Shown piece after piece: positions 30,605 through 45,923 of a DNA stretch of 64,000 nt (position 1 is the first letter of the stretch; every line of letters begins with the position of its first letter). The stretch is from Acidobacteriota bacterium (GTDB lineage: Bacteria; Acidobacteriota; Vicinamibacteria; Marinacidobacterales; Marinacidobacteraceae), in assembly GCA_022828085.1 (NCBI GenBank), contig JAJEIY010000001.1, positions 35,180-99,179 of the forward strand, written 5' to 3'. The notes under the pieces were generated by a model that was not told the origin of the DNA, ran no database searches, and worked only from the letters and a program-made list of their open reading frames with translations. The position numbers were made by a program, and so were the translations under genes.

Positions 30605-33600
30605 CTAGTTCGAGAACTGGTCCCGCCGCGCCGCCTTGACCGGCCGGGGCCGGAAGAGTGACAGCCGCACCCCGTCGGTGAAGTCCTCCTCGAAGCGCTG
30701 GACCTCCCAGTCGCTCTCGTACATGAGCTTCACCACCGACATCAGGTAGCCGAACTGGCCGCGGGCCGCGATCTTGTCCATCCACTCCGGACCCGCCGTC
30801 TCGTCGGGCATGTCGCAGCCGAGATCGAGCACGGTGATCTGCGGGTGGCGCTCGATGAACATCCTCCCGTTCGGATCCGGCCGCTTCCACATCGAGCTCA
30901 CGTAGATCTCGTCGCTGAACGAACCGCCCTCCTGGAACGAATAGGAGTGGTCGAAGAGGATGTTCATCCCTTCGTAGATCTCGAGCCGGAACGGGTCGGG
31001 CTGGTAGCGGCGGGCGTACTTCTCGAAGCGGTGGACGAGACGCTCGTTCGCGGCGCGGATGTCGGCGACGCCCTGCACCTCCTCGATGATCCGCTCCCGC
31101 AGCTCGGCTCCCACGGGCTTGTGGTCCGGGTAGTTCGGATCGTCGATGTGATGCAGGTTGATGTGGTAGCCGCGGGGGATCCAGAAAGCCAGGAACCAGG
31201 GCACCTTGTAGCCGGCGAACTGGTGGACCCACTCGTGGCTCGGGTAGCCGTGGGGGTTCATGTAGACGTCCGGGAGCCAGCGGTAGTAGATCTGCCGGCG
31301 CACCAGGGCCTCGGGCAAAAGCGGATCGTCATCCCAGATATAGGCGCCCACGTCCCGCGCCACCGAACTCCAGTAGCCGCCGTGCAGGATGTAGGTCGGC
31401 CGGAGCTTGTGGAACTCGAAGTGGTTCGCCGCCCCGTCCGGGTTCTCCATCGGGTGGTAGACGATGTTCATCCGTTCCAGGTACTTCCGGTAGTCGGGAT
31501 CGGTCGCCACCAGTTCCATGAACCGCATGGCCCCACTGGTCGCCGAGACCTCGTTCGAGTGCTGGCGGGTGGTGATGAAGAGGACGGGCTTCAGCGCGCT
31601 TGCCTTCGCCTGCGAGAAGAGCTGGGCCTCGTGCGGCAGCATCACGTCCATCGCCCAGACGTTCCGGCCGCGGTAGGTGCGGCCCGCGACGTAGGCGTTG
31701 AACTCGGGGAAGCTTTGGAGCCGCGGGATGAGTTCCTCCTCCAGTTCGTCCGGTCCGATCACATGGTCCCAGGTGACGAACTGCTCGCCGGGGGTCGGCT
31801 CGATGGTCTCGATACCGCCCGGCTGGGTGAGGAGCGTCGGGTCCACCGGCCGCACCGACTCCTCGATCGCCGCGTTCCCGATCCGCGCCGACAGCGCCAA
31901 TTCCTCAAGCCGCGCGTAGCCGAGCGCCGTCCGGAGCGCGCCGGCGGCCTGCATCTCTCGGAGACCCTCCACCATCCGCCCGACGGTCCGGGCCGTCTCG
32001 AAGTCCTCGGCATCCACACTGGCCGTAAGCCGCGCGGCGCCCTCGGCGCCCGCCCGCACCTTCACCGAAGTGATCCGGGGCCGCGATACGTCCAGCTCGG
32101 TCAGCCCGATCCGGCGCTCGCCCACCGCGCCGTCCCGCGTCGTCCACTGCACCGCGATCTCGGGGTGCGGCACGGCGTTGCCCACGAACCGCACCCGCAC
32201 CTCGGGCGGACCCTCCCGCGGCGGATGGATCATCGGCATGAGCCGCCCGGGGGCAACCTCCCGGCTCCCCGATTCCTGGCCGCTGAAGATGCCCCAGAAG
32301 TCGATGGTGCTGAAGGTGAGGTCCTCGTGGAGCGAGTCCATCGGGGAGATCCGCTCCTCATCGAGGTCCAGCCGGAAGTCCGGCTCGCTCATCTTGATGT
32401 CCAGGAAGAAGTCCCGGAAGAAGGGCTGGTTCCTGAGGCTCAGGTCGCCCCGGGTGTACTCCCGCGCGTACTCGAACATCCTCGGCTGCGCGTCGTGCTG
32501 GTAGTAGTCCCAGAGGCGCTCGGGATCGGTGCGGACGTGGACGTCGGCGATCTCCTCGCCGTTCACCAACGCCCGGAACCCGCCGGTCGTGGCGTGGATG
32601 CTGGCGGTCGGGACGTAGGGGAAGTACTCGCGCGTCATGAAGCGCGGCGCGAAGCGGTCCTCGTGCAGCACCCGTCCCACGTCGTCCGTGACCTCCACCT
32701 CGTACTCCATCGGCCCCTCGTCCACCTTCACGAACTCGGTGTCATCCACGTCGATCCCCAGTTCCCGCGCCAGGATCCAGTCGATCGGGAAGATCTCCTG
32801 GAGCCAGCGGATGTCCTGCCCGTACCAGCGCTCGTTCGCCGGGTAGTGCGCGGTCGGGAACCGCACCGTGATCCGGCCGACGTCCTGGCCCTGGACCGCG
32901 GGGAGCACGTAGTCGGCGAGCCAGCTGAACCCCTGCTTGTAGGCGCAGATGACCCGGACCCGGGTCTCCGCGGCGCCGGCTTCACGGAGCGCGGACTCGA
33001 ACTCCTCCTGGAGCCGCATCCGGATTTCGGGCGACTCGCTGACCAGGATCTCGACCTCCACCCGGTCCCCGGCGCCGACCCGCGACACGACGTCGGCGGT
33101 GAACCGCTCCCGCAGTTCGTCCACCTCCCAGCCGAGGTCGAGTTCCTCGTCGAAGACGGTGACCGGCCCGTAGCGTGAGGCCGCCGTGACGGAGACCTCC
33201 GGTACCCCGGTCGCCTCCCGGAGCCGCTCCTCCAGGAACACCCCCACTTCCGCGCTGGCCTCTTCGAGGAAGACGTCCACTTCCAGCGACGTGATGTCAC
33301 CGCCGGACCACATCCCGCTCAGGTCGTCGAGGTGGACGAGCGCCCGGGCCGCCTGCCCGGCGCTGGAGCGCGACCGCAGGAAGGCGCGAGCGTCCTCCTC
33401 GATGGCGCTGAAGTCCACCTCGCCGCGGCGGGTCTCCCAGAGCGAGGGGAGCCGTCCGGCCAGATACGCCGCCGCGGCGTCGAGCCCGGAGGCGTCACCG
33501 CCGCGGACCCGCACCGCCGGGGAGTCTCCGAACGCGCCCGGGACGATCTCCACGACTCCCTCGCCGGGGTCGAGCGCCCGGCCGCCCGGTAGCGACGCCG

Positions 33601-34765
33601 CGAGATTCCCCGGGCCGATCAGCACCGGATTCGGGAGCACCGACGGATCCTCGATGTCCCCCTCCACGAAGGCGATCGGGAGGGTCAGGCCGGTGGTCTC
33701 GAGCCCGATGCGGGCGGCGAGGTCCACCGCGCCCAGTACCGGGCCGGCCCCGGCGCCGATGACGAGCACCGTCTCGGACTCGTCGGGGATCATGTCGTCC
33801 CCGCGCGAGTCGCCGAGCAGGCCGTCCGTCGTGTAGAGCTTCGTCAGATTCAGCGGCGCGGCTTTCGGCTGCCACGGGTTCTCCGGGAAACGGCTCTTGT
33901 AGGGAGGCCCGAACCGGTCCACCACCACCCCGTTCCCGTCGGGGAGCTGGAAATCGAGGGCTCCCGCGCCGTAGTAGTTGAGCCGCACCGCCCGGCGGTC
34001 GGTGAACCGCGCCTGTCCCACGCGGTGGTCGGCGGCGAGCTCGTCGAGAACCTCGGCGGCGTTCCCGGGATCCACCACGTCGAGCGCCATGACGAGGCGG
34101 GTGACCTGCTCCCGGCCGTCTTCGTAGACGGCTTCGGTGGCCCGGACCCCGTCCACGTCCACCCGGCTCTCGCCCAGAAACTCCTCGACGTCGTCCATCA
34201 CCGAGGAGATCGTGTCGCTCCGGAGCTGCCACAGGTAGGGCAATCGGGCGGAGGCCGAGTTCGCCGCGTAGAGCGTCCCCGCCGGGTCGGCGCCGGCGAC
34301 CACGACCGCGTCCGGACCCCCGAACGGGGCCGGGACGATGGCGAAGAGCCCCTGCCCCGGCGTCAGTCCGGCGAGGCTGATGCGCCCATCCTCCTCGAGT
34401 TGCCGGACCCAGCGGTTCGACCGGCCCACCAGGAAGAGCGGCGGGGTCTCCGCGCCGGGTTCGATGTCCGCATCGAGGACCGCCAGGCCGGGCGTGAAGG
34501 CCGACGACTCGAAGCCCAGCCGGGCCGCGATGTTGGCGGCGGCCGCCACCTCCTCGGGCGCCGGACTGGCGGGCAGCACGATCCGGGCGTTGATGAAGTC
34601 CACCACGCCGTCGCCGTTCCGGTCCTCGAGGAAGACGCCGGGAGCGAAGACGTCCTCGAGTCCGGCGAGGGACTGGTCCTGTTGCGCCTTTCCCGCCGGG
34701 GCGGAGTAGAGCAGGGTGAGGGCCGTGAGCGGCCCCACGATCCACGCGGTGCGCTTCGGACGCAT
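30605..34765 (-). CDS. Very large secreted protein (1386 aa) with C-terminal M14 zinc carboxypeptidase domain
   Basis: A signal peptide MRPKRTAWIVGPLTALTLLYSAPAGKAQ precedes about 1000 aa with no recognised domain. The C-terminal region has M14 motifs HSNE (HxxE zinc ligands) and HPMENPDG. Confidence 0.75.
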   Translation of the reverse strand: MRPKRTAWIVGPLTALTLLYSAPAGKAQQDQSLAGLEDVFAPGVFLEDRNGDGVVDFINARIVLPASPAPEEVAAAANIAARLGFESSAFTPGLAVLDADIEPGAETPPLFLVGRSNRWVRQLEEDGRISLAGLTPGQGLFAIVPAPFGGPDAVVVAGADPAGTLYAANSASARLPYLWQLRSDTISSVMDDVEEFLGESRVDVDGVRATEAVYEDGREQVTRLVMALDVVDPGNAAEVLDELAADHRVGQARFTDRRAVRLNYYGAGALDFQLPDGNGVVVDRFGPPYKSRFPENPWQPKAAPLNLTKLYTTDGLLGDSRGDDMIPDESETVLVIGAGAGPVLGAVDLAARIGLETTGLTLPIAFVEGDIEDPSVLPNPVLIGPGNLAASLPGGRALDPGEGVVEIVPGAFGDSPAVRVRGGDASGLDAAAAYLAGRLPSLWETRRGEVDFSAIEEDARAFLRSRSSAGQAARALVHLDDLSGMWSGGDITSLEVDVFLEEASAEVGVFLEERLREATGVPEVSVTAASRYGPVTVFDEELDLGWEVDELRERFTADVVSRVGAGDRVEVEILVSESPEIRMRLQEEFESALREAGAAETRVRVICAYKQGFSWLADYVLPAVQGQDVGRITVRFPTAHYPANERWYGQDIRWLQEIFPIDWILARELGIDVDDTEFVKVDEGPMEYEVEVTDDVGRVLHEDRFAPRFMTREYFPYVPTASIHATTGGFRALVNGEEIADVHVRTDPERLWDYYQHDAQPRMFEYAREYTRGDLSLRNQPFFRDFFLDIKMSEPDFRLDLDEERISPMDSLHEDLTFSTIDFWGIFSGQESGSREVAPGRLMPMIHPPREGPPEVRVRFVGNAVPHPEIAVQWTTRDGAVGERRIGLTELDVSRPRITSVKVRAGAEGAARLTASVDAEDFETARTVGRMVEGLREMQAAGALRTALGYARLEELALSARIGNAAIEESVRPVDPTLLTQPGGIETIEPTPGEQFVTWDHVIGPDELEEELIPRLQSFPEFNAYVAGRTYRGRNVWAMDVMLPHEAQLFSQAKASALKPVLFITTRQHSNEVSATSGAMRFMELVATDPDYRKYLERMNIVYHPMENPDGAANHFEFHKLRPTYILHGGYWSSVARDVGAYIWDDDPLLPEALVRRQIYYRWLPDVYMNPHGYPSHEWVHQFAGYKVPWFLAFWIPRGYHINLHHIDDPNYPDHKPVGAELRERIIEEVQGVADIRAANERLVHRFEKYARRYQPDPFRLEIYEGMNILFDHSYSFQEGGSFSDEIYVSSMWKRPDPNGRMFIERHPQITVLDLGCDMPDETAGPEWMDKIAARGQFGYLMSVVKLMYESDWEVQRFEEDFTDGVRLSLFRPRPVKAARRDQFSN

Positions 34766-34776
34766 GACGTACTCCC

Positions 34777-37700
34777 TTATTGGCGTTCGGATTCCACGAT
34801 GCCGCGGAGCTCCGCGAGCAGTCCGGTGAGCACCGGATCCAGGTCGTCGAACCGCTCGAACGCGGAATCGGTCGGCTGCGAGTCAGCCCCCTCGACGTAC
34901 CCGTACAGAAGGTCGAGCTGCTGGATGAGCTTCGGGGCGTAGTCCTGGTCCTCGCGGTCGAAGTCCTCGGGAAGCGGCACCAGTTCCCGTTCGATCCGGG
35001 TGAGCCGTTCCGCGACGGACGCCGACGCCCCCTCGCGCAGCTCCCGGATCTCCGCCACCGCCCGGTGGAGATCCGTGATCCGGTCCCGGATCCTGAGCAG
35101 CAGATCGAACTGGCTCTGGAACTCCTCGGCCGTCGTCGTCACCCGCGGATCGGGCAGCACCTCGATCGGCTGCGTCCCGCTCCAACCCTCGGTCGAGACC
35201 CGGACCTGGTACGTCCCCGGCACCACCAGCGGCCCGAGCGGCGCCCCGCCGAACGCCGAGGGATGCCTGAGATCCCATACGAAGCGGTTCAGCCCCGCAT
35301 TGAAGAAGGTGCTCTCCTCCTTGAAGAAGGGCGCCTCCGGCCGGGCGATCACCGAGGGGTCCCTGGGGTCGTCCTCGCTTGAGAACCGCCGGAGGACCTC
35401 CCCCGCCCCGTCGAGGATCTCGAGGGTCACCTCACCCTCGGGAGCCTCGGCGAACCAGGTGTAGATCGTCGTGCCGTTCGGCGCGTCGGTGCCCTGCCGG
35501 TCCCGGGTGATGCGGGCGCCACCGTAGAGGTCCCGCGGGTTGGCCACCGACCGCCAGCCTCCCACGTACTCGTCCACGGCCTCCTCTTCCGCGGTCCGCA
35601 CCCGGTGGGCGTCCCGCGGCGCGAAGAGATGCGCGCCCGACGCCGCCACCTCATCCGTCAACTGGTGGAGCGGGGACAGGTCGTCGAGGATCCAGAAGGA
35701 ACGGCCCTTCGTCGAGAGCACCAGGTCTTTCTCGTGGACGACCAGGTCGGTCACGGGGGCCACCGGGAAGTTGAGCTGGAGCGACTGCCAGTGCGCGCCG
35801 TCGTCGAAGGACACGAACACCCCGTATTCGGTGCCGGCGTAGAGCAGACCTTTCCGGTCGGGATCCTCCCGGACCACCCGTACCCATTGGTCGGCGGGGA
35901 TCCCGTTCGTCCCGTCGGTGAGCAGCGTCCAGGTCTCCCCGAAGTCGTCGGTGCGGAAGACGTAGGGCCGGAAGTCGTCGAGGCGGAAACGCACTACCGA
36001 GATGAAGGCGCGCCCCGCGGTGTGCGGGGAGACCTCCAGGATGTTCACCGTCCCCGAGTCCGGCATGTCCGCCGGGGTGATGTTCCGCCAGTTCTCCCCG
36101 CCGTCCCGGGAGAGGTGGACGAGCCCGTCGTCGGTGCCGGCCCAGAGCACGCCGGGAATGTGCTTCGATTCGGCCAGCGCGAAGATCGTGCAGTAGACCT
36201 CCTCGCTCGTCACCTCCCGGGTGATGGGGCCGCCCCAGGTGTTCATCCGCTCCGGGTCGCCCGTCGTCAGGTCGGGGCTGATGATCTCCCAGGTCTGGCC
36301 CTCGTTCGTCGAGCGGTGGACCACGTGCGAGGCGTGGTAGAGCACGTTCGGGTCGTGCGGCGAGAGCACGATGGGCGCGGTCCGCTGGAACCGGTAGCGG
36401 AGATGTTTCGCCGGCATCCCCCCCACCTCGGGATACGCCTTGATGGGCCGGATCTGGCCGGTCGCGCGGTCGAAACGGGTGATCGCTCCGCTCGTGCTCC
36501 CGGAGAAGACGATGTTCGGGTTGTCGGGCCGGATGACCGCAACCCCGCCCTCCATGCCGCCGACGCCGTCCCAGTGCTGGAGCTGGAGGCGCATTCCGTA
36601 GTGGCCGGACCGGCTCGGCACCGAGATCACCTCCCAGGTGTCCTGCGCCGAGCCGTAGACCCGGTAGGGGAACTGGTTGTCCACGCTCACCCGGTACATC
36701 TCGGAAGTCGGCTGGTTTAACTGGCTCGACCAGGTGCGGCCGGCATTCCAGGAGACGTTCGCGCCGCCGTCGTTGCCCTGCACCATGATCCGGTTGTTGC
36801 CGGGGTTGATCCAGAGGTCGTGGTTGTCGCCGTGCGGGGTTGCGATGAGGTCGAACGTCTCCCCGGCGTCGTCCGAGCGGTGGAAGTAGCGGCTCACCAC
36901 GTAGACCCGGTCCACGTCCACCGGGTCCGCGTAGATGTGCATGTAGTACCAGGGCCGGTTCTGGAGTTCGCGGTCGTCGTTGATGAGCTGGAAGGACGCG
37001 CCGGCGTCGTCCGAGCGGTAGACGCCGCCGTCCCGGGCCTCCACGAGGGCCCAGACCCGGTTCGGATTCGCGGCGGACACGGAGACTCCCGTCCGCCCGA
37101 TCATTCCCGTGGGAAGTCCGTTCGTGAGTTCGGTCCAGGTATCCCCGCCGTCCGTGGTCTTGTAGATGCCGCCCTCCTCACTGCCCGAGATGATGGTCCA
37201 GGGCTTCCGCTCCGCGGTCCACATGGTGGCGTAGAGCACGCTCGGGTCGGACGGGTCCATCGCGATGTCGTTCGCACCGGTCCGCTCGCTGACGTAGAGC
37301 ACCTTCTCCCAGGTGGCGCCGCCGTCGGTGGTCCGGAACACCCCGCGCATCTCGTTCGGCCCGAAGGCGTGGCCCAGGACCGCCGCGAAGGCGACGTCGG
37401 GATCTTGCGGATGGATCACCACGCGGCCGATCTGCCCGGCGTCATGAAGCCCGACGTTCGTCCAGCTTTCGCCACCGTCGGTGGACTTGTAGATCCCGTC
37501 TCCGGGGGAGATGTTGCCCCGGATGCAGGCCGAGCCGCTGCCGGCGTAAACGACGGCCGGGTCGGAGTCTGCCACATCGATGGCGCCGATCGAACTCGAG
37601 CCGTAGTACCCGTCCGAGACGTTGACCCAGCTCTCGCCGGCGTCCGTGGTCTTCCAGAGCCCGCCGCCGTTCGTGCCCATGAAGTAGGTCCAGGGCTCTT

Positions 37701-37863
37701 CGGCGATGCCGGTCACCGCGGTGACCCGGGAGCCCTTGTGGGGCCCGATCATGCGGTACTTGAGCGCCTGGTAAGTGGCGGGGTCGTAGACGTCGTTCTG
37801 CGTGCCGCCAGCGGCCGGCGCCGCGAAGAGCGTCAGGGCCAGTAGCCGGGTGGTGAGTCTCAT
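34777..37863 (-). CDS. Secreted BNR/Asp-box repeat double beta-propeller protein (sialidase/GH74/sortilin-like)
   Basis: At least nine Asp-box-like repeats are present (TTDGGATWEKV, TTDGGDTWTEL, STNEGQTWEII, SRDGGENWRNI, TDDFGETWTLL and others). A signal peptide MRLTTRLLALTLFAAPAAG leads a protein of about 1030 aa. Confidence 0.8.
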   Translation of the reverse strand: MRLTTRLLALTLFAAPAAGGTQNDVYDPATYQALKYRMIGPHKGSRVTAVTGIAEEPWTYFMGTNGGGLWKTTDAGESWVNVSDGYYGSSSIGAIDVADSDPAVVYAGSGSACIRGNISPGDGIYKSTDGGESWTNVGLHDAGQIGRVVIHPQDPDVAFAAVLGHAFGPNEMRGVFRTTDGGATWEKVLYVSERTGANDIAMDPSDPSVLYATMWTAERKPWTIISGSEEGGIYKTTDGGDTWTELTNGLPTGMIGRTGVSVSAANPNRVWALVEARDGGVYRSDDAGASFQLINDDRELQNRPWYYMHIYADPVDVDRVYVVSRYFHRSDDAGETFDLIATPHGDNHDLWINPGNNRIMVQGNDGGANVSWNAGRTWSSQLNQPTSEMYRVSVDNQFPYRVYGSAQDTWEVISVPSRSGHYGMRLQLQHWDGVGGMEGGVAVIRPDNPNIVFSGSTSGAITRFDRATGQIRPIKAYPEVGGMPAKHLRYRFQRTAPIVLSPHDPNVLYHASHVVHRSTNEGQTWEIISPDLTTGDPERMNTWGGPITREVTSEEVYCTIFALAESKHIPGVLWAGTDDGLVHLSRDGGENWRNITPADMPDSGTVNILEVSPHTAGRAFISVVRFRLDDFRPYVFRTDDFGETWTLLTDGTNGIPADQWVRVVREDPDRKGLLYAGTEYGVFVSFDDGAHWQSLQLNFPVAPVTDLVVHEKDLVLSTKGRSFWILDDLSPLHQLTDEVAASGAHLFAPRDAHRVRTAEEEAVDEYVGGWRSVANPRDLYGGARITRDRQGTDAPNGTTIYTWFAEAPEGEVTLEILDGAGEVLRRFSSEDDPRDPSVIARPEAPFFKEESTFFNAGLNRFVWDLRHPSAFGGAPLGPLVVPGTYQVRVSTEGWSGTQPIEVLPDPRVTTTAEEFQSQFDLLLRIRDRITDLHRAVAEIRELREGASASVAERLTRIERELVPLPEDFDREDQDYAPKLIQQLDLLYGYVEGADSQPTDSAFERFDDLDPVLTGLLAELRGIVESERQ

Positions 37864-37909
37864 CGTTGCTCCTTTCTGCGGAAGGGACGATCGGGGCACG
37901 GCCTCCCCG

Positions 37910-38422
37910 TTACTCGAGCCGACGATAGATCACCTGAACGGCGGGCCCGGACTCCTCGGTACGGCGGGGCAGGTCCACGAACATCCGGTCGCCCTCCACC
38001 CGGACTTTGGCGACCGATTCGAGGCCGATGATGTCCGGCCCGAGGCTGACGTCCCACTGGCGCCGGAGCGTGTCCCCCTCGATCTGGTAGGTGCCGGCGG
38101 TACCGGAGTAGTTGAGAAGCTGCTCGTAGTGCGCCACCTGTTCCTCGGGCGGGAGTTCCGCGAGTTCCGCGGCCGAACGGGCGGTCCGGTTGTTGTCCAT
38201 GCGGGCAAGGCAGTGGTAGCCGTTCGTGAAGACCCAGATGCCGCTCCAGGTGGAGTCGTCCCGGACCAGCTCCCCAGTCTCGGTGTTCGTCTCCGAGACG
38301 AAGGCCCAGACCCCGGTGATGAGGGTGCCCTCGTCCTCCTCTTCCATCGGGGGCGCCGGGGTGCAAGCGGCCAGCAAGAGCGCAGCACTCGCCGCGAGCA
38401 GCAACAGATCGGTGGTCTTCAT
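37910..38422 (-). CDS. Lipoprotein, lipocalin-like small secreted protein (hypothetical)
   Basis: MKTTDLLLLAASAALLLAAC supplies a signal and lipobox Cys, and the protein is 170 aa. Confidence 0.55.
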   Translation of the reverse strand: MKTTDLLLLAASAALLLAACTPAPPMEEEDEGTLITGVWAFVSETNTETGELVRDDSTWSGIWVFTNGYHCLARMDNNRTARSAAELAELPPEEQVAHYEQLLNYSGTAGTYQIEGDTLRRQWDVSLGPDIIGLESVAKVRVEGDRMFVDLPRRTEESGPAVQVIYRRLE

Positions 38423-38450: not shown

Positions 38451-39800
38451 TCACACCGCCTCCGAAGGCCGGTAGAAGTTGAAGTTCGCGACCCGGAGCG
38501 CCGGCATCAGGTTGCCGTTCAGGCCCGAGGACCCGAAGCTCGCCGCGTTGTAGGGACGTGACGCGTCCTCGATGTTGTTTGCGAACTCGTCGAGCCGCAG
38601 CGAATACCAGGCGTTTTCGAGCGGCCCGGCGAGCTGGCCGTCCTCGATCCGGAAGAGACCGTTCCGCGTCATCCCGTTGACATGCGGCGGATCGATGGTC
38701 CGGAGCATGGTGTTCCAGTTCTGGGTCATCAGGATCCCCCGGTCCACGCCCGCGATCACGTCTTCGAGCGACTTCGACGCACCGTCCCCCACCAGGTGGA
38801 CCGCGGGACCGTTCTCCCCGCCCGGCACGTTGCGGAGCACGCCTTCCTCGACCCAGACCCGTTCCCCGAGCGGCATGCCGCCGGGACCGTAGGGGCTCCC
38901 CATGATCTGCGGATGGCCGGGTTGGGTGCTGAGACTCAGGTGTTCGCTCGCCACCCGGGCGCCCGCCTCGGACGGGGTCCCCCAGGCGCCCACGGTGCGC
39001 GCCGACCCGCTCCAGAGCCGCATCAGGAGCCCGATGAAAGAGGCAGCCGCCGACGGCTCGAGCACGACCGTGTGCGGCCCCATCTCGAACGGCTGCGGGT
39101 CCACCGAACCGAGCGCCTTCCGGGTCGCGACGTCGGTGATCCCGGGGATGTCCAGATCGGCGAAGCGCCGCCGGTCCCCGACCGCCGCCCAGCCGGAACC
39201 GACACGGCTCGAATCGCGCCCGGTGGTGGCGTCGGAACGCACGGTGACCGCGTACCCGGTCTTGGTCGCCCGCCGGTAGAACCAGGCGCCGGCGCTGTTC
39301 GCGTGCGCCTCCAGCGTGTCGTCCACGTGGAAGTAGCCCGAGCCGTTCAGCCCCTCGGCTTGCAGGCGCTCGATCACCCCGGCCACGGGCTGGTGTCGCT
39401 CCTCGTCGGTGAGCGCCGCGGTCGCCTCGTCGAAACCCGGGATTTCCGGGTACTCCTCGGGACCATGGAGCGGCCGGTGGGACCCGTTCGGGGCGGCCGC
39501 CCGGGCGATCGCCTCCGCGCGCGCCACCGCATCGCGGATCCCCGCCGGGTCGAGCTGATTCGTGATCGCGGCCCCTTCCCGGTTGCCGAAGGCCACGTGC
39601 ACCTGGAGCGGGTGGCAGGGCATCACCACCGTGTCGTCCCGGATGTAGCTGTTCGAGAAGCGGATGACCTTGGTGGATCCGCAGACGACCTCCCGGTTCA
39701 CCTCGTGGTACCAGGCCATCGTGAGTTCGACCTCGTCCGCGGTGGCCGCCTCGAACGCGGTGTCGAAAATGCCGCGGACCTGCTCTTCAGTGAGGATCAA
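38451..39800 (-). CDS. pmbA: TldD/PmbA family metallopeptidase (PmbA/TldE-like partner), no signal peptide
   Basis: TldD/PmbA-family homology runs from LILTEEQVRGIFDTAFEAATADEVELTMAWYHEVN to the C-terminus. The inferred TTG start overlaps the tldD stop as TTGA. The upstream part of the track ORF is antisense/frame junk. Confidence 0.65.
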   Translation of the reverse strand: MILTEEQVRGIFDTAFEAATADEVELTMAWYHEVNREVVCGSTKVIRFSNSYIRDDTVVMPCHPLQVHVAFGNREGAAITNQLDPAGIRDAVARAEAIARAAAPNGSHRPLHGPEEYPEIPGFDEATAALTDEERHQPVAGVIERLQAEGLNGSGYFHVDDTLEAHANSAGAWFYRRATKTGYAVTVRSDATTGRDSSRVGSGWAAVGDRRRFADLDIPGITDVATRKALGSVDPQPFEMGPHTVVLEPSAAASFIGLLMRLWSGSARTVGAWGTPSEAGARVASEHLSLSTQPGHPQIMGSPYGPGGMPLGERVWVEEGVLRNVPGGENGPAVHLVGDGASKSLEDVIAGVDRGILMTQNWNTMLRTIDPPHVNGMTRNGLFRIEDGQLAGPLENAWYSLRLDEFANNIEDASRPYNAASFGSSGLNGNLMPALRVANFNFYRPSEAV

Positions 39801-41416
39801 CTCGCCGGCCCTCCCACGTTCAGGTTCCGGAACCGCGCCCAGGGCGCCCCGTGGGTGTTGTGGTTCCGCTGGGTCGGCTGCCCGATGTCGTCCGAATCGA
39901 GCGCCGCCGGCTCCCAGGACGCCGGGTCCGTGACCGTCTCCAGCCGGTGCCAGAGCTCGCTCGGGTTCTTGCCGTAGTAGTGGGCGCCCCGGAGCATCCG
40001 GGTCGTCCGGCCGTTCTCGATCTCCCAGACCGCGTTCCCGGTGTAGGTGTGGTAGCGCCGCTGGTAGTCCTGGACGATCCGGCTCGAGAACCCGCGGAAG
40101 AGGAGCCCGCGCCGGGTGTCGGCGATGAGTTCCTCCGGTGAGGGAGCGTCCTGGCCACCCGGTTCGAGGCTCAGGTTCGGCATCCGCCCCTGCGGCACCC
40201 GGTCCCACGACTCGGTCATGCAGCAGCCGCGGCTCGCCTCTTCACCCACGTAGGTGGCGAACTCGCGGGTGGTCTGGAAACCCACCAGCTTCCCCTCCCG
40301 CACCACGTCCCATTCCTGCGTCTTGACCCCTTCGTCGTCATAGCCGCAGGTGGAACGGAGCATCGGGCGGCTGCGGTCGCCCACGAAGTTCATGACCGGG
40401 GAGCCGAACTCGTAGCTCCCCATGTCCTCGGCGGCGAGGAAGGTGCTGCCCGCGAAGTTCGTCTCCACCAGCACCGTCCGGTTGAGTTCGGTCGGATGTC
40501 CGATCGTCTCGTGCTCGAAGAGGCAGATGTTCTGCGGGTCCATGACCACGTCCAGCTGGCCGCTGAAGTCGATGATCGGGGCTTTCGCCTTCTCCACCGC
40601 CTCGGCGGCGATCCGCTCGGCGTGGCTGGGCAAGTCGAGCCCGCGGATGTACTCGTAGCCGATGTTCAGCGGGTTGACGAAGAACCGCCGCTGCGCGGTG
40701 ACCCCATCCACCCGGGCTCGGGCGAAGAAGGACCCGTCCGAGCGGACGAGGCGCTGCTGGATCTCCGCGCCCTCCGAGTTTGCGTAGAACTTGTTCTCGT
40801 CCCAGAAGTCGAGCCAGGAGAAGGCCCGGTCCGTCTGGGGATTCTTCCGGACCTCTTCATTGATCCGGAGCAGGAGAGCGACCTTCTCGTCGAGAGGCAC
40901 CGTGAACGGGTCCTCCTCGTGGGGCGTGACCCAGGTGTCCACATGCACGGGCTCCGGGACCAGCCGGATCGGCTCGGGCACCGTCAGCGCGGCCTTCTCC
41001 GCCAGGTCGCACGCCAGTCCGGCCACCGCGACCGCCTCGTCCTCGCTGAGCACGGGGCTGGCGGCAAATCCCCAGGCGCCGTTCTTGAGGACCCGGACGT
41101 TGAGCCCGATGTCCACCTTCTCCAGCACGTGCTCGGGCGAGGACCCGTAGTGCCACTCGCCGGGGACGCCCTTGATCGCCTGGTCGTCGGCGGCGATCGT
41201 CTGGATGAGGTTCCGGACCACCCGCACATCCGCGAACGTCGAGCCGCGGCTGGTGGTCACGCGGAGGGCCGCGTCCGCGAGCCCCTTCTTCCACTCGACG
41301 TCCTCGATGAGTTCGTGGGCCGGACGGGGGGCGGCGCAACGTGTGAGCCCGAAGGGCAGGACGACCGCGGCCGTGCCCCCGCAAAGCCGCACGAACTGGC
41401 GACGGGTGATGTCCAT
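39797..41416 (-). CDS. tldD: TldD family metallopeptidase with twin-arginine signal peptide
   Basis: MDITRRQFVRLCGGTAAVVLPFGLTRC is a Tat signal. A TldD-like domain of 539 aa follows, with the HExxxH-like region FEHETIGH. Confidence 0.8.
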   Translation of the reverse strand: MDITRRQFVRLCGGTAAVVLPFGLTRCAAPRPAHELIEDVEWKKGLADAALRVTTSRGSTFADVRVVRNLIQTIAADDQAIKGVPGEWHYGSSPEHVLEKVDIGLNVRVLKNGAWGFAASPVLSEDEAVAVAGLACDLAEKAALTVPEPIRLVPEPVHVDTWVTPHEEDPFTVPLDEKVALLLRINEEVRKNPQTDRAFSWLDFWDENKFYANSEGAEIQQRLVRSDGSFFARARVDGVTAQRRFFVNPLNIGYEYIRGLDLPSHAERIAAEAVEKAKAPIIDFSGQLDVVMDPQNICLFEHETIGHPTELNRTVLVETNFAGSTFLAAEDMGSYEFGSPVMNFVGDRSRPMLRSTCGYDDEGVKTQEWDVVREGKLVGFQTTREFATYVGEEASRGCCMTESWDRVPQGRMPNLSLEPGGQDAPSPEELIADTRRGLLFRGFSSRIVQDYQRRYHTYTGNAVWEIENGRTTRMLRGAHYYGKNPSELWHRLETVTDPASWEPAALDSDDIGQPTQRNHNTHGAPWARFRNLNVGGPAS

Positions 41417-41480: not shown

Positions 41481-44333
41481 CTAGAAGCGAATCCGGAGCG
41501 CCAGCTCGATCTGCCGGGCCTCGGACACCTGCGTCGACTGTCCGAAGCCTCCGGAACGGAGGTTGCCGTTCGGAGGGAAGTAGTTGGCGCGGTTCAGCAG
41601 GTTGAACACCTGGAAGATGGCCTCGGCGTAGGCGTTGTCGCCGAACCGGAACTCCTTCGCCGCCAGCACGTCCACGGTGGCGTAGGCGGGACACTCGACC
41701 GAGGAAACCGTCGACAGCCCGTTCGCGGTCCGGTAGGCGTTCGCCGCATTCAGATCGAGATCGCGGCAGCCGTCCCGGAGGTTGATCCCCGGTGGCCGGT
41801 CTCCGCCGATGCCGTCCCCGTTCAGGTCGCTGCCCGCCGTGACGTTGAACGGCAGGGCGCTCTGGTAGCGGACGATGCCGCTCAGGTTGACACCCCCCGG
41901 CAGCATCGCGAGGCCGCTGAGGGTGAGGCGGTGCCGCCGGTCCGCGGGCACGTGCCCGTAGTCGGAACCACGGTTGTAGTGGTCGGCGGGGAACGTCTCC
42001 GAGTCGGCCTGCACGTCAGCCAGCGTGTAGGAGCCGAGCATCTGCCAGTTGTCCGCGAGCCGCTTCGTCACTCTCGCCGACAGGGCGCGGTACTTCATCT
42101 CGCCGTCCGTCATGCCGGCCGTGACCCGGCCGATCGGGGCGTAGGGTCGTTCGCCTCCCGCCGTCAACGGGTAGTTGAAGTCGATCTGCGTGTGCTGGTT
42201 GAAACCGTCGGCGGCGATGCCGTCGAGGCTGATGCTCAGATCGTCCCCGAGCTGGATGCTGTAGCCCAGGCTGTACTGGTTGGTGTAAGGCGTCCGGTTC
42301 TCGTTGCCCTGGACGGAGTAGTTCCGCTGGGAACGCGCTACCTCGAAGGGGTCCTGCCCCTGATACGGATCGGGATAGCTGGGATTCTGGATCACCACCA
42401 GCAGGTCCTCGGGATTCCGCTCGGCGCGGGGCGCGCCGTTGGCCCGGTAACGGTTGTAGAAGACCCCCCAGGCGGCCCGCACCGACTGGCGGCCGTCGCC
42501 GGTCGGATCCCACACCAATCCCAGCCGGGGGCCGAAGTTGTCGTTGTCCCCGCGGGTGCTGTTGTCGTAGAACGGGAAGAGGGACGGATCGAGCCGGCCG
42601 GCCGGGCGCACGACCCGGTCCCGGACCAGGATCTCGGGCACCGTTTCCTCGAGCAGGTTCTCGTTCCAGACGCCCTGCTGCAGGTCATACCGCAGACCGA
42701 GGTTCAGCGTGAGCCGGGGGTTCACGATCCAGGTATCGCTGATGTAGATGGAGTGCTCCGTGTTCTCGAAATCGTCGTAGCGGGGCAGAAGCCGCTGCCG
42801 GAACCGGTCGGGGTGGGTGGACGGATCGTTCGGGTCGTACGGCGCGTCGGAGGAGAACCACCACTCTTCGGCGACGCCGACGTTGTCCGGTTCCCAGTCA
42901 ATGAACGTGAGGTCCACGCCGAGCTTCAGCTCGTGGCCCCCAACGTAGTGGGAGATGTCGTTCTTGACCTGGATGTGGAGTTCCGGCCCCAGGAACGCGG
43001 ACTGGCTCCCGGTGCGGAGACTGGGGCGGTTGATGAGGGGCCCGACATCCACGCGCTCGGCCGGGAACTCGCCGGAGGCGCTCCACTTCTGGTGTCCGGG
43101 GGGCCAGCCGATGTAGGTGGCGTGCGCCACCTGGACCCGGAAGTCGTTGAAAGTGTTGGGGCTCAGGAACCAGGTCTCGCCCAGCACCAGTGAGTGCCGT
43201 GGAGCCCCGAAGCTGAAGCCGCTGCTCGCCGCCCGGATGCCGCCGGAGCCGCGGTGAGTCAGTTCGTTGTTGTGGTGCGCGTAGCGGGCGAACAGGCGGT
43301 GATCGTCGTTGATGGCGTAATCGAGGCGCGCGAACCCCATGAAGTTCCAGTCCGGCTTCTCAAAGGTGCCCTCCTCGGAAGGAAACGCGCCTCCGGTGTT
43401 CACCGTGAAGAAGGAGGTCTCGTCGGTGTACTCGGCGGAGAGGTAGAAATGGGCCTTGTCCTCGACGATCGGGCCACCGAGCGATCCGCCGAACTGGTGG
43501 CGGGAGAAATCGGGCTTTTCGTCCTGAAACACCGTCTTCGAGTTCAGCGCCTTGGTGCGGAAGAACTCGAAGACGCTGCCGCTGACCCGGTTCGTGCCAC
43601 TTTTGGTGACCACGTTCAGGTAGCCGCCCTGCGCGAAACCGAAGTCGGCGCTGGCGTTGAACGCCTGGACCTTGAACTCGGCAATGCCTTCCTGCGGAAA
43701 GTCCTGCCGCGGCTCGCCCTGCTGCTGCCAGTTGTTGCTCACCCCGTCCACGTAGAAACCGTTCGAATAGAACGTGACGCCGGCGCCGATGTTGACGTTG
43801 TTGTAGAAAACGCCGCGGATCGCATCCTGACTGGTGGCGGGACTCAGCGTGGCCAGATCGAGCCACTTCCGTCCCTGCATCGGCAGGACCTCCACCTGTT
43901 CCTCGGTGATGATGGTGGAGAAGTCCGCCTGCCGGGACTCGATGAGTGGGGCGGATGCGGTGACGGTGACCGCCTCCTCGACTCCGGCCAGTTCCAGCGA
44001 GATGTTGAGCGTCACCTGCTGCGCCACCTGCAGCCGCAGGCCCTCGTTGGTGACGGTCTGGAACCCATCGAGGCTCGCCATCACCGCGTAGGTGCCGACC
44101 GGAAGCGAGGGCACCTGGTACAGGCCGTCCCCTCCGGAGGTCACCGTCCGCTGCAGCCCGGTTTCGGCGTTCGTGACGGTGACGGTCACTCCGGGCAACG
44201 CGTCCCCGGTGGCGTCGGTTACGCGCCCGTAGACGCCTGCTTCCTGGGCGGCCGCGGTGACGGCCACTCCGACGAGCAGCGCTGCGAACAGCACCGCCAG
44301 GGGCCTCGCCCCGATGCAGTTACCGAAATTCAT
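41481..44333 (-). CDS. TonB-dependent outer-membrane receptor with N-terminal carboxypeptidase-regulatory-like (CarbopepD_reg) domain
   Basis: A signal peptide MNFGNCIGARPLAVLFAALLVGVAVTAAAQ is followed by GRVTDATGDALPGVTVTVTNAETG, a CarbopepD_reg domain. Plug and barrel regions follow, the C-terminus ends in aromatic F, and the protein is about 950 aa. Confidence 0.88.
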   Translation of the reverse strand: MNFGNCIGARPLAVLFAALLVGVAVTAAAQEAGVYGRVTDATGDALPGVTVTVTNAETGLQRTVTSGGDGLYQVPSLPVGTYAVMASLDGFQTVTNEGLRLQVAQQVTLNISLELAGVEEAVTVTASAPLIESRQADFSTIITEEQVEVLPMQGRKWLDLATLSPATSQDAIRGVFYNNVNIGAGVTFYSNGFYVDGVSNNWQQQGEPRQDFPQEGIAEFKVQAFNASADFGFAQGGYLNVVTKSGTNRVSGSVFEFFRTKALNSKTVFQDEKPDFSRHQFGGSLGGPIVEDKAHFYLSAEYTDETSFFTVNTGGAFPSEEGTFEKPDWNFMGFARLDYAINDDHRLFARYAHHNNELTHRGSGGIRAASSGFSFGAPRHSLVLGETWFLSPNTFNDFRVQVAHATYIGWPPGHQKWSASGEFPAERVDVGPLINRPSLRTGSQSAFLGPELHIQVKNDISHYVGGHELKLGVDLTFIDWEPDNVGVAEEWWFSSDAPYDPNDPSTHPDRFRQRLLPRYDDFENTEHSIYISDTWIVNPRLTLNLGLRYDLQQGVWNENLLEETVPEILVRDRVVRPAGRLDPSLFPFYDNSTRGDNDNFGPRLGLVWDPTGDGRQSVRAAWGVFYNRYRANGAPRAERNPEDLLVVIQNPSYPDPYQGQDPFEVARSQRNYSVQGNENRTPYTNQYSLGYSIQLGDDLSISLDGIAADGFNQHTQIDFNYPLTAGGERPYAPIGRVTAGMTDGEMKYRALSARVTKRLADNWQMLGSYTLADVQADSETFPADHYNRGSDYGHVPADRRHRLTLSGLAMLPGGVNLSGIVRYQSALPFNVTAGSDLNGDGIGGDRPPGINLRDGCRDLDLNAANAYRTANGLSTVSSVECPAYATVDVLAAKEFRFGDNAYAEAIFQVFNLLNRANYFPPNGNLRSGGFGQSTQVSEARQIELALRIRF

Positions 44334-44713
44334 ACCCGTCTCCTTTCTGGGTGAACGCGCCTGTCGGGAGGCGCTACGGACAGATGCAGTCGCGCAACCG
44401 GGCAACCGGAGGAACGCGATCCGTCCATGAACTCAACGGAGAGCCCGCCCGGAGGCGGCCCGCGACGCCCGCTTGAGCCAAAGCGCGCCGTCCAGCGGAC
44501 AGGTTGCTTCGAGACATGTCGCGGTTAGCTCTCCTCGGTTGCGCGTAACAGCCGCAACCGATTTGGAAACCCCATTAACTCGCCTCGGGGGGGTGCGCCG
44601 TCAAATGCGACTCCTTCACTCCGACTTTGCGCCTCCACCACCGGGTCGGCCACCGGGGCCAGGGGGCCGCCGGCGGCGCCACCACAGTCCTCCCTGCTAA
44701 TCTCCCCAGTCCC

Positions 44714-45202: not shown

Positions 45203-45631
45203 TCAGCGAACCGGATTGCGCCAGCGCAATCCGGAGAAACGCGCGAAGTCCCAGTCGTTCGAATGCAGTTCCGCCTGGTGCTCAATGGCAAGTGCCGCCA
45301 GGTGCGCGTCCATCACCAGTGAGGAACCGATTGCGGGGCCGCGCAGGAGCCCTTCCAGCACGTCGAGATGGGACGGCCCCGGCGCCAGAATACGCGCGCA
45401 GGGTTCCGCGAGCCAGCGCCGGCACTCGGCGAGCGCTTCCTCGACACTCATGGGTGTCGCGACCGCCCGCCGGCTGGAAACCACTCTGGCGAAACCCAGC
45501 ATGACCATCCAGGAGAGACCCACTGGTTCGTTCCCTGAAAGGCACTGTTCCCACCAGCTTCGGGCGGCCTCGTGTTGCGGGGAATCCTTGTTGTAGGCGT
45601 AGACCAGAAGGTTGACGTCGGGAACGACCAA
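45203..45631 (-). CDS. vapC: Type II toxin-antitoxin system VapC toxin (PIN domain)
   Basis: The 142-aa protein has PIN acidic residues (MVVPDVNLLVYA...D...E...D) and lies 4 bp downstream of vapB. Confidence 0.8.
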   Translation of the reverse strand: MVVPDVNLLVYAYNKDSPQHEAARSWWEQCLSGNEPVGLSWMVMLGFARVVSSRRAVATPMSVEEALAECRRWLAEPCARILAPGPSHLDVLEGLLRGPAIGSSLVMDAHLAALAIEHQAELHSNDWDFARFSGLRWRNPVR

Positions 45632-45635
45632 GGCT

Positions 45636-45923
45636 CTAGGAACCGCCGATATCCCGGCGAGCCTTCTCGAGGAACCGGTCCACTTCGAGTTCGTCCACCA
45701 ACTGGTTCAGCTTGAGGGGATCGACCCCGGGAGCCCACCCCAGGGGCCGGGCCTTCACTCGGAAGGGTTCCCGAGGAGCCGCTGGTTTCTCGCCAACAGC
45801 GATGCCGCGCCGGAGAACCTCGTTCACCACGCTCTTGAACGACCTGCCGCTGTGGCGGGCGGTCTCCCGAAGAACTCGTCCGAGGTCGTCGTCAATCGTC
45901 AGGGTCGTTCGCACGCTGAACAT
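45636..45923 (-). CDS. vapB: Type II antitoxin VapB (RHH/CopG-like)
   Basis: The 95-aa protein has an N-terminus MFSVRTTLTIDDDLGRVLRETAR typical of VapB antitoxins. Confidence 0.75.
   Translation of the reverse strand: MFSVRTTLTIDDDLGRVLRETARHSGRSFKSVVNEVLRRGIAVGEKPAAPREPFRVKARPLGWAPGVDPLKLNQLVDELEVDRFLEKARRDIGGS

What the first reader, a model, noticed from the sequence alone, without database searches (positions are those of the whole stretch)
38451..41416. Tat-exported TldD with a signal-less PmbA/TldE partner joined by a TTGA overlap: possible Tat hitchhiker export of a TldD/E heterodimer
TldD begins MDITRRQFVRLCGGTAAVVLPFGLTRC, a twin-arginine signal. The adjacent PmbA-like gene has no N-terminal signal. 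Its only plausible start is a TTG overlapping the tldD stop, which implies translational coupling. Characterised TldD/TldE form a heterodimeric proteolytic chamber in the cytoplasm. Tat can export pre-folded oligomers using the signal of one subunit. If that happens here, the complex would act on periplasmic peptides imported by the upstream TBDR.
Basis: inference. Interest (0 to 1): 0.6.

Follow-up and report, generated by a model that had tools for sequence, protein, structure and literature searches.

The report
Tat-signal TldD with signal-less PmbA partner
A two-subunit peptide-cutting enzyme that is cytoplasmic in E. coli here carries a folded-protein (Tat) export signal on its catalytic subunit only, a pattern repeated in dozens of unrelated bacteria, so the pair is probably exported together into the cell envelope.

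Summary
On the minus strand, a 539-aa TldD-type gene (39797-41416) begins MDITRRQFVRL...; this passes the curated Tat-signal model TIGR01409 (21.4 bits, cut-off 16.7). A 449-aa PmbA/TldE-type gene (38451-39800) starts at a TTG inside a TTGA overlap with the tldD stop, 9 nt after GGAGG, and has no signal.

The asymmetry is general. In a survey of about 80 non-redundant loci, 63 TldD-like genes have an RR-type N-terminus. 51 of them have an adjacent PmbA-like gene (49 unique), and none of those has a signal. In 25 of the 49, an in-frame stop lies fewer than 15 codons upstream, so a hidden signal is impossible.

The Tat-type TldDs also replace the cysteine zinc ligand of E. coli TldD with aspartate (61 of 63). 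Signal-less relatives keep cysteine (16 of 18).

The best explanation is cytoplasmic assembly of a TldD/E-type heterodimer and co-export by Tat hitchhiking. This is inferred, not shown.

The proposed link to the upstream TonB-dependent receptor is weak. That gene is adjacent only in relatives at 91% identity or more. The conserved neighbours are a lipocalin-like lipoprotein, a Sortilin/BNR protein and an M14 peptidase.

No paper in the searched library links TldD/PmbA with Tat.

The parts
39797..41416 (-). TldD-type catalytic subunit gene, 539 aa
   Evidence: All three Pfam PmbA_TldD domains are present. The family profile hits E. coli TldD 5nj5_A at E 3.9e-37. The AlphaFold model (pLDDT 87.8) is closest to E. 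coli TldD 5njc_C, E 1e-37, TM 0.81.
41336..41416 (-). Tat-type signal peptide region, residues 1-27: T-R-R-Q-F-V-R motif, h-region LCGGTAAVVLPFGL, conserved Cys27
   Evidence: TIGR01409 scores 21.4 bits against a cut-off of 16.7. R5 is invariant, and R6 and F8 are at least 90% conserved, in 61 homologues. Residues 1-30 have low pLDDT.
40496..40513 (-). HExxxH metal-binding motif (HETIGH, residues 302-307)
   Evidence: Located. H302, E303 and H307 are invariant in alignments A1 and A2.
39890..39892 (-). Asp509, at the alignment column of the E. coli TldD third zinc ligand Cys454
   Evidence: Profile alignment to 5nj5_A; column comparison.
39797..39815 (-). Coupling junction: GGGAGGG (39815-39809), 9-nt spacer, then TTG start (39800-39798) overlapping the TGA stop (39799-39797)
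   Evidence: Read directly from the sequence. The same -4 overlap occurs in L001-L008, L010, L011, L037 and L093.
38451..39800 (-). PmbA/TldE-type non-catalytic partner gene, 449 aa, no signal peptide, no HExxxH
   Evidence: Pfam PmbA_TldD_3rd. No HExx(x)H motif. The AlphaFold model has pLDDT 92.1. TM-scores are higher to TldE/PmbA-type chains (6j6a_A 0.79, 1vl4 0.82, 1vpb 0.80) than to E. coli TldD (0.68-0.70), though E. coli PmbA itself gives only about 0.71.
41481..44405 (-). Upstream TonB-dependent receptor-like outer-membrane protein. The likely start is the ATG at 44333 (MNFGNC...).
   Evidence: Pfam CarboxypepD_reg and OMP_b-brl_4. It is adjacent only in L001-L007.
37910..38422 (-). Lipocalin-like lipoprotein (MKTTDLLLLAASAALLLAAC...)
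   Evidence: Pfam Lipocalin_5. It is conserved downstream of the pair in L011 and L093.
34777..37899 (-). Sortilin/BNR-repeat protein with a Sec-type N-terminus (MRLTTRLLALTLFAAPAAG...)
   Evidence: Pfam Sortilin-Vps10 and BNR. Conserved in L011 and L093.
30605..34765 (-). 1386-aa M14 carboxypeptidase-domain protein with an S-layer-like domain and a Sec-type N-terminus
   Evidence: Pfam Peptidase_M14 and S_layer_C. Conserved in L093.

Best explanation
The pair encodes an envelope-located version of the TldD/TldE heterodimeric metalloprotease.

Shown: TldD has a twin-arginine signal. PmbA has none and cannot have a hidden one. The two genes are translationally coupled. This asymmetry is conserved in a very large family.

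Inferred mechanism: the two subunits are made in roughly equal amounts from the coupled genes. They fold, bind metal and close into the hollow heterodimer in the cytoplasm. The roughly 105-kDa complex is then carried across the inner membrane by the Tat translocase on the single signal of TldD, which is the hitchhiker route. In the periplasm it degrades unfolded peptides in its internal chamber. In sister lineages it is probably tethered by a lipidated Cys at the end of the signal; in this window's clade that is doubtful.

The third metal ligand has changed from Cys to Asp. This would suit an oxidising compartment.

In this lineage the pair sits in an operon of exported proteins: an outer-membrane receptor, a lipocalin-like lipoprotein, a Sortilin/BNR protein and a large M14 carboxypeptidase. 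This suggests a role in breaking down extracellular protein or peptide.
For: 1. Tat signal. TIGR01409 is above its cut-off for the window protein. It hits 32 of 61 homologue N-termini at E <= 0.01, and other Tat-signal models hit a few more. Pfam TAT_signal hits 24 of 61. RRxF is the only conserved feature of an otherwise unconserved N-terminus.

2. No signal on the partner. There are 0 hits among 41 partner N-termini, and none of 77 database homologues has an N-terminal extension. In 25 of 49 partners, fewer than 15 in-frame codons lie upstream before a stop, for example L009 with 7, L030 with 0 and L050 with 0.

3. Obligate pairing. 51 of 63 Tat-type TldD genes have an adjacent co-directional partner. 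11 of the other 12 lie near a contig end, and only L074 truly lacks one. 29 of 39 downstream partners start within 25 nt of the tldD stop, several with -4 or -1 overlaps.

4. E. coli TldD is active only together with TldE, and the two form a closed shell (PMC5810440). The window proteins match TldD-type and TldE-type folds respectively.

5. Independent sign of a change of compartment. There is Asp at the Cys454 column in 61 of 63 Tat-type proteins, against Cys in 16 of 18 signal-less ones.

6. Operon context. The other five operon proteins all begin with Sec or lipoprotein signals. A second Tat-signal protein, an alanine racemase, lies in the same window.

7. Hitchhiking on a single-subunit signal is an established Tat mode (PMC10924467 and PMC4273604).
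Against: There is no experimental or structural evidence that these two proteins bind each other or leave the cytoplasm. I could not run a heterodimer prediction.

The window protein does not reach the Pfam TAT_signal threshold (12.7 against 22.7 bits).

The region after the h-region (LTRC-AAP) is neither a canonical lipobox (Arg at -1) nor a clear AxA site.

I did not check for tatA or tatC genes in this genome.

Some loci have T-P-T or T-P-T-P-T arrays, so the subunit ratio is not always 1:1.

The Cys/Asp-versus-signal association may reflect only a few ancestral events.

A Sulfolobus TldD homodimer has been reported as active, a report the E. coli study says is at odds with its own finding (PMC5810440). 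TldD alone in the periplasm is therefore conceivable.
Confidence: 0.62

Rival explanations
1. Only TldD is exported. It works in the periplasm alone or as a homodimer. The PmbA-like protein stays in the cytoplasm, either as a homodimer with its own function or as a dedicated folding or holding partner for TldD before export.
For: PmbA/TldE proteins crystallise as hollow homodimers without a catalytic site (PMC5810440). T-P-T and T-P-T-P-T arrays show unequal gene numbers. One Tat-type TldD (L074) has no partner within 5 kb. No signal of any kind is present on the partner.
Against: Adjacency and translational coupling are kept across the whole family, in both Tat-type and signal-less pairs, which fits a stoichiometric complex better. 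E. coli TldD has no activity without TldE. In the window, PmbA is the only signal-less product in an operon of exported proteins.
Confidence: 0.2
2. The RR N-terminus is not an export signal here, or it acts as an uncleaved N-in membrane anchor. In that case both proteins act on the cytoplasmic side like E. coli TldD/E.
For: The window sequence is below the Pfam TAT_signal cut-off. The cleavage region is atypical (LTRC-AAP). Tat machinery genes were not checked.
Against: TIGR01409 is above its cut-off. RRxF plus a hydrophobic region is conserved while the rest of the N-terminus is not. Sister lineages carry canonical lipoboxes after the h-region, such as PLTGC and PLAGC. The cysteine metal ligand is lost specifically in RR-bearing members. 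The operon partners are all exported proteins.
Confidence: 0.1
3. The PmbA start is mis-assigned, and the real protein carries its own signal from an upstream start.
For: The PmbA frame is open for 147 codons upstream in the window. One homologue (L034) has an upstream MKEKTVTRRAILGVGGVSSANRT stretch.
Against: The window extension has no hydrophobic segment and no RR motif. 25 of 49 homologous partners have an in-frame stop within 15 codons. The L034 stretch gives no TIGR01409 hit even at E <= 1. The start position, the Shine-Dalgarno sequence and the structured helix from residue 5 all agree with the TTG.
Confidence: 0.02

Closest known systems
E. coli TldD/TldE (PmbA) microcin-processing metalloprotease (PDB 5NJ5 series; PMC5810440)
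   Same: It has the same two-subunit make-up. One subunit is of TldD type with HExxxH and three PmbA_TldD domains. The other is of TldE type without the motif. Fold matches are E 1e-37 with TM 0.81 for TldD, and TM about 0.7-0.8 to TldE-type chains for the partner.
   Different: E. coli TldD has no signal peptide (chain residue 39 aligns with profile position 48). Only about 18-19% of residues are identical in the structural alignment, and a single-sequence search of the PDB finds nothing. The third zinc ligand, Cys454, is Asp509 here. The window genes are adjacent and overlapping; from my own knowledge, not tested here, the E. coli genes are unlinked.
Tat hitchhiker complexes: NiFe hydrogenase small and large subunits, formate dehydrogenase, PaoABC (PMC10924467, PMC4273604)
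   Same: One subunit carries the twin-arginine signal, the co-encoded partner has none, and the complex is expected to assemble before export.
   Different: The examples described in the papers I read are redox enzymes with complex cofactors. This would be a metalloprotease. Co-export is not demonstrated here.
Signal-less members of the same TldD-like clade (about 485-495 aa; cyanobacterial and other), with their adjacent partners
   Same: About 36-40% identity to the window TldD, the same adjacent PmbA-like partner, often with the same -4 overlap.
   Different: They have no N-terminal signal, they keep the CGKGQP cysteine ligand (16 of 18), and their partners carry a different N-terminal extension, for example ...KTWPKLTSRDEFRFL.

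Membership tests
TldD/TldE (PmbA) heterodimeric metalloprotease family (Pfam PmbA_TldD) | Catalytic subunit with the three PmbA_TldD domains and a TldD-like fold | tested here: met
   PF01523, PF19290 and PF19289 are all above their cut-offs. The profile hits 5nj5_A at E 3.9e-37. Foldseek hits 5njc_C at E 1e-37, TM 0.81.
TldD/TldE (PmbA) heterodimeric metalloprotease family (Pfam PmbA_TldD) | HExxxH metal-binding motif in TldD | tested here: met
   HETIGH at residues 302-307. H302, E303 and H307 are invariant in 40 and 61 homologues.
TldD/TldE (PmbA) heterodimeric metalloprotease family (Pfam PmbA_TldD) | Conserved C-terminal Cys (E. coli Cys454) as third metal ligand | tested here: not met
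   The aligned residue is Asp509 (LDSDDIGQP). Asp occupies this column in 61 of 63 Tat-type members. Asp may take over the role, but this is untested.
TldD/TldE (PmbA) heterodimeric metalloprotease family (Pfam PmbA_TldD) | Second subunit of TldE/PmbA type lacking the HExxxH motif | tested here: met
   The 449-aa protein has no HExx(x)H. The Foldseek top hit is TldE 6j6a_A. TM-scores are 0.79-0.82 to TldE-type chains and 0.68-0.70 to TldD, though E. coli PmbA itself gives only about 0.71.
TldD/TldE (PmbA) heterodimeric metalloprotease family (Pfam PmbA_TldD) | Physical heterodimer with activity that depends on both subunits | not testable with these tools
   Only single-chain prediction was available. 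The heterodimer is inferred from conserved adjacency and coupling and from E. coli biochemistry.
Tat (twin-arginine) substrates | N-terminal S/T-R-R-x-F-L-K-type motif followed by a moderately hydrophobic region | tested here: met
   T-R-R-Q-F-V-R followed by LCGGTAAVVLPFGL. TIGR01409 scores 21.4 bits against 16.7. Pfam PF10518 scores only 12.7 against 22.7.
Tat (twin-arginine) substrates | Recognisable signal-peptidase I or II cleavage site after the h-region | tested here: inconclusive
   LTRC-AAP has Arg at -1, which is not a canonical lipobox, and there is no clear AxA site. Sister lineages have PLTGC, PLAGC and PLVGC. No signal-peptide predictor was available.
Tat (twin-arginine) substrates | Tat translocase genes (tatA/tatC) present in the genome | not tested
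   Only 64 kb of the genome is held. A second Tat-signal protein (an alanine racemase, 22829-24031) in the window is indirect support.
Tat hitchhiker complexes | Signal on one subunit only; the partner has no Sec, Tat or lipoprotein signal | tested here: met
   This holds in the window and in 49 of 49 partners of Tat-type TldDs. 25 of the 49 have no room for a signal.
Tat hitchhiker complexes | The partner is found outside the cytoplasm, and its export depends on the signal-bearing subunit | not testable with these tools
   This requires fractionation or genetics.

The most novel reading that the evidence does not exclude
A very large, phylogenetically broad clade of TldD/E-type proteases has moved to the periplasm. 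It occurs in Acidobacteriota, Myxococcota, Planctomycetota and other lineages; one search returned 7973 of 8000 scored candidates at E <= 1e-50. The move would have been made by putting a Tat signal on the catalytic subunit only, with obligatory piggy-back export of the pre-assembled protease shell and a matching Cys-to-Asp remodelling of the metal site. As far as the searched literature shows, this would be the first protease exported by Tat hitchhiking, and it would show that the enigmatic TldD/E family has a major extracytoplasmic branch.
Probability: 0.55. Interest if true: 0.65.

Novelty: new variant of a known kind. Interest (0 to 1): 0.55.

Why it matters
All characterised TldD/E proteases are cytoplasmic, and their general physiological role is still unclear. 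An abundant envelope-located branch would widen what the family is thought to do, for example periplasmic peptide turnover or nutrition in soil and marine Acidobacteriota and other phyla.

It would also add a non-redox protease to the Tat hitchhiker substrates. The examples in the papers read here are cofactor-bearing oxidoreductases. That would support the idea that Tat is chosen whenever a complex must be closed and metal-loaded before export.

The Cys-to-Asp ligand switch that tracks the signal gives a simple sequence marker for the exported type. It is also a testable idea about how metal sites adapt to an oxidising compartment.

Tried and rejected
- A single-sequence search of the PDB with the window TldD found nothing. 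A family profile was needed.
- 1VPB (Bacteroides BT3649) was considered as a solved orthologue of the partner family. It is only a distant relative.
- A tblastn search of plasmid records for annotated cultured examples returned only signal-less or partial matches.
- A cluster look-up to obtain organism names returned none.
- The third homologue search, made to find a tractable host, returned only Acidobacteriota, Vicinamibacterales and Luteitalea MAG names.
- Papers mention operons with two 'TldD proteins' in Xanthomonas and Stenotrophomonas. I could not verify that these are of the Tat type.
- The one partner with an upstream RR-containing stretch (L034) was tested against TIGR01409 and gave no hit.
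- The promoter and terminator scan of the operon gave nothing above the shuffled expectation.
- Adjacency of the TonB-dependent receptor as a family feature was tested and rejected.
- I did not attempt a heterodimer structure prediction. The structure tool takes one chain, and only sequences from the window or from the homologue searches.
- My automatic RR classifier missed weakly hydrophobic or variant motifs (RK, KR, RQ; L053, L073, L081, L084, L085). I reclassified L073 by eye, and the others were counted as 'variant' by a second pattern.
Full report
**What is in the window**

Both genes lie on the minus strand. The TldD-like ORF runs from 41416 down to 39797 (539 aa) and begins MDITRRQFVRLCGGTAAVVLPFGLTRCAAPRP.

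The junction reads ...GTG GGA GGG CCG GCG AGT TGA TCC... The TTG at 39800-39798 shares two bases with the TGA stop at 39799-39797, and a GGAGG lies 9 nt upstream of it. From that TTG the PmbA-like ORF runs to 38451 (449 aa) and begins (M)ILTEEQVRGIFDTAFEAATADEV.

[quoted passage not shown] HETIGH (residues 302-307) is present in the first protein. No HExx(x)H is present in the second.

**Is the Tat signal real?**

The first 40 residues of TldD score 21.4 bits on NCBIfam TIGR01409 TAT_signal_seq (curated cut-off 16.7, E 2e-4). The PmbA N-terminus gives nothing. The Pfam TAT_signal model gives only 12.7 bits against a cut-off of 22.7, so that test is not passed.

In an alignment of 61 homologues at 32-68% identity, the N-terminal region is otherwise unconserved. 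R5 is invariant, and R6 and F8 are at least 90% conserved. That is how a functional targeting motif behaves.

The AlphaFold model (pLDDT 87.8) is disordered or low-confidence over residues 1-30 and well folded from about residue 33.

**Can PmbA have a hidden signal?**

In the window its frame is open for 147 codons upstream, inside tldD. That stretch has no hydrophobic segment (maximum 12-residue Kyte-Doolittle mean 0.5) and no RR motif.

All 77 database homologues start at the same position with no extension.

The start codon at that position is TTG in six of the seven close genomes. It is ATG in L004 and L011, and TTG with the same TTGA overlap in the 69%-identical L093.

The PmbA model (pLDDT 92.1) is confident from residue 1, with its first helix at residues 5-18. 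The TTG therefore gives a complete domain, and the next ATG (Met28) would truncate it.

**How general is the asymmetry?**

I collected three sets of loci:
- 7 genome loci at 91-98% identity, from Acidobacteriota, Vicinamibacteria and Candidatus Marinacidobacterium MAGs;
- contexts of four more distant homologues;
- 80 metagenome loci found with a family alignment.

I classified all long open frames in the loci fetched up to then, and in the window, with my own TldD-type and PmbA-type HMMs.

After removing near-duplicates, 63 TldD-like genes have an RR-type N-terminus (59 RR and 4 with RK, KR or RQ variants). Of these, 51 have an adjacent co-directional PmbA-like gene, giving 49 unique partners. 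Of the 12 without a partner, 11 lack sequence on at least one side because of contig ends. Only one (L074) has room on both sides and no partner.

None of the 49 partners has a signal-like N-terminus. In 25 of them an in-frame stop lies fewer than 15 codons upstream of the conserved start (for example L009 with 7, L014 with 3, and L030, L050 and L065 with 0). A cryptic signal is impossible in those.

Curated models agree:
- TIGR01409 hits 32 of 61 TldD N-termini at E <= 0.01, and other Tat-signal models hit a few more. It hits 0 of 41 partner N-termini.
- Pfam TAT_signal hits 24 of 61 TldDs and 0 of 41 partners.

One partner (L034) has an upstream MKEKTVTRRAILGVGGVSS stretch, but it gave no hit.

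Of the 39 downstream partners, 29 start within 25 nt of the tldD stop, several with -4 or -1 overlaps.

A second subgroup of 18 genes has no signal on TldD. 15 of them still have the adjacent partner, so pairing is a family-wide trait and the signal is an addition on one subunit.

**What the proteins are**

A single-sequence search of the PDB with the window TldD finds nothing. The family profile hits E. coli TldD (5nj5_A) over its full length at E 3.9e-37, and TldE at only 1.8e-12.

The TldD model is closest to E. coli TldD chains (E 1e-37, TM 0.81). For the PmbA model the Foldseek top hit is T. kodakarensis TldE (6j6a_A). Its TM-scores are higher to TldE/PmbA-type chains (0.79-0.82) than to E. 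coli TldD (0.68-0.70), although E. coli PmbA itself gives only about 0.71.

According to PMC5810440:
- E. coli TldD and TldE form a closed spherical heterodimer.
- Activity needs both subunits.
- The metal is held by the two His of HExxxH plus Cys454.

**A second, independent mark of the exported type**

At the column of Cys454 the window protein has Asp509 (LDSDDIGQP).

In the locus survey, 61 of 63 RR-type proteins have Asp there, and 16 of 18 signal-less proteins keep Cys (CGKGQP). The database set shows the same trend: 83 with RR and Asp, 4 with RR and Cys, 16 with no RR and Cys, and 12 with no RR and Asp. Many of that last group look like N-terminally truncated gene calls.

Replacing a thiolate ligand with a carboxylate would make sense in the oxidising periplasm. 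This is an inference, and the association may rest on only a few ancestral events.

**Conserved cysteine at the end of the signal**

Cys27 of the window protein aligns with canonical lipoboxes in sister lineages: PLTGC, PLVGC and PLAGC, and less canonically PFGGC and PLPGC. Some members are therefore probably Tat-dependent lipoproteins.

In the window clade the sequence is LTRC. Arg at -1 does not fit the usual lipobox, so lipidation here is doubtful.

**Genomic context**

In the window, six minus-strand genes follow each other with gaps of 10-64 nt or an overlap:
1. TonB-dependent-receptor-like protein
2. TldD
3. PmbA
4. lipocalin-like lipoprotein (LAAC lipobox)
5. Sortilin/BNR protein
6. 1386-aa M14 carboxypeptidase-domain protein

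Every product except PmbA begins with a Sec, lipoprotein or Tat signal.

The receptor is adjacent only in the relatives at 91% identity or more. In L011 (68% TldD identity) a homologous receptor gene lies about 4 kb upstream on the opposite strand. In L093 (PmbA 69% identical) no receptor gene is called within 6 kb upstream of the pair. Both of those loci keep the lipocalin, Sortilin and, in L093, M14 genes. Nearly all other loci have unrelated neighbours.

A second Tat-signal protein lies in the same window: an alanine racemase at 22829-24031 that begins MRVSRRALLGSALAPAALAWAPAARAAAQ. This suggests that the organism uses Tat.

**Mechanism proposed**

Shown:
- a Tat signal on one subunit;
- no signal possible on the other;
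- translational coupling;
- conservation of all three features.

Inferred:
- The subunits assemble and bind metal in the cytoplasm.
- The roughly 105-kDa shell is exported on TldD's signal.
- The complex degrades unfolded peptides in the envelope.

Hitchhiking on the signal of one subunit is established for hydrogenases, formate dehydrogenases and PaoABC (PMC10924467 and PMC4273604).

**Rivals**

- Only TldD is exported and PmbA has a cytoplasmic role (confidence about 0.2).
- The RR N-terminus does not drive export (about 0.1).
- The PmbA start is mis-assigned (about 0.02; tested here and not supported).

**Novelty**

Full-text searches combining TldD or PmbA with twin-arginine, Tat, signal peptide, periplasmic or hitchhiking terms found no paper that makes this connection. 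The key structural paper mentions no signal peptide or periplasm. Source annotations say only 'TldD/PmbA family protein' or 'TldD protein'.

The family is very large. 7973 of 8000 scored candidates reached E <= 1e-50 in one search.

Both the protease family and the export mode are known. Their combination, and the ligand switch, appear to be undescribed. I therefore rate this a new variant of a known kind, of moderate to good interest. The central step, co-export, is still unproven.

Noticed in passing
window 39890-39892 (Asp509 of TldD); loci L008-L091: The third zinc ligand of E. coli TldD (Cys454) is Asp in 61 of 63 Tat-signal members. It stays Cys in 16 of 18 signal-less members of the same clade. 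This may be an adaptation of the metal site to the periplasm.
   Followed up: partly
window 41336-41338 (Cys27 of TldD); P0004-P0007, L093: The Cys at the end of the Tat signal is conserved. In sister lineages it sits in canonical lipoboxes (PLTGC, PLAGC, PLVGC), which suggests Tat-dependent lipoproteins. The window clade has an atypical LTRC.
   Followed up: partly
L012, L014, L015, L084 (also P-T gene order in L061, L063, L067-L069, L087): Some loci carry T-P-T or T-P-T-P-T arrays, in which two or three Tat-signal TldD paralogues flank one or two signal-less partners. The subunit gene ratio is therefore not always 1:1.
   Followed up: no
window 22829-24031 (+): A 400-aa alanine racemase (both Pfam domains) has a classical Tat-like N-terminus, MRVSRRALLGSALAPAALAWAPAARAAAQ. 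It is a candidate periplasmic PLP racemase.
   Followed up: partly
window 30605-38422 (-); L011, L093: A module of lipocalin-like lipoprotein, Sortilin/BNR protein and a roughly 1380-aa M14 peptidase with an S-layer-like domain is conserved downstream of the TldD/PmbA pair, down to about 66-69% identity. The upstream TonB-dependent receptor is not conserved.
   Followed up: partly
window 45203-45923 (-): A PIN-domain protein and a FitA-like ribbon-helix-helix protein lie just upstream of the operon. They look like a VapBC-type toxin-antitoxin pair.
   Followed up: no
L034 6666-6806: The partner gene has an in-frame upstream stretch, MKEKTVTRRAILGVGGVSSANRT, with an RR motif but a weak hydrophobic region. 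It gives no Tat-model hit. It could be a degenerate or nascent signal.
   Followed up: partly
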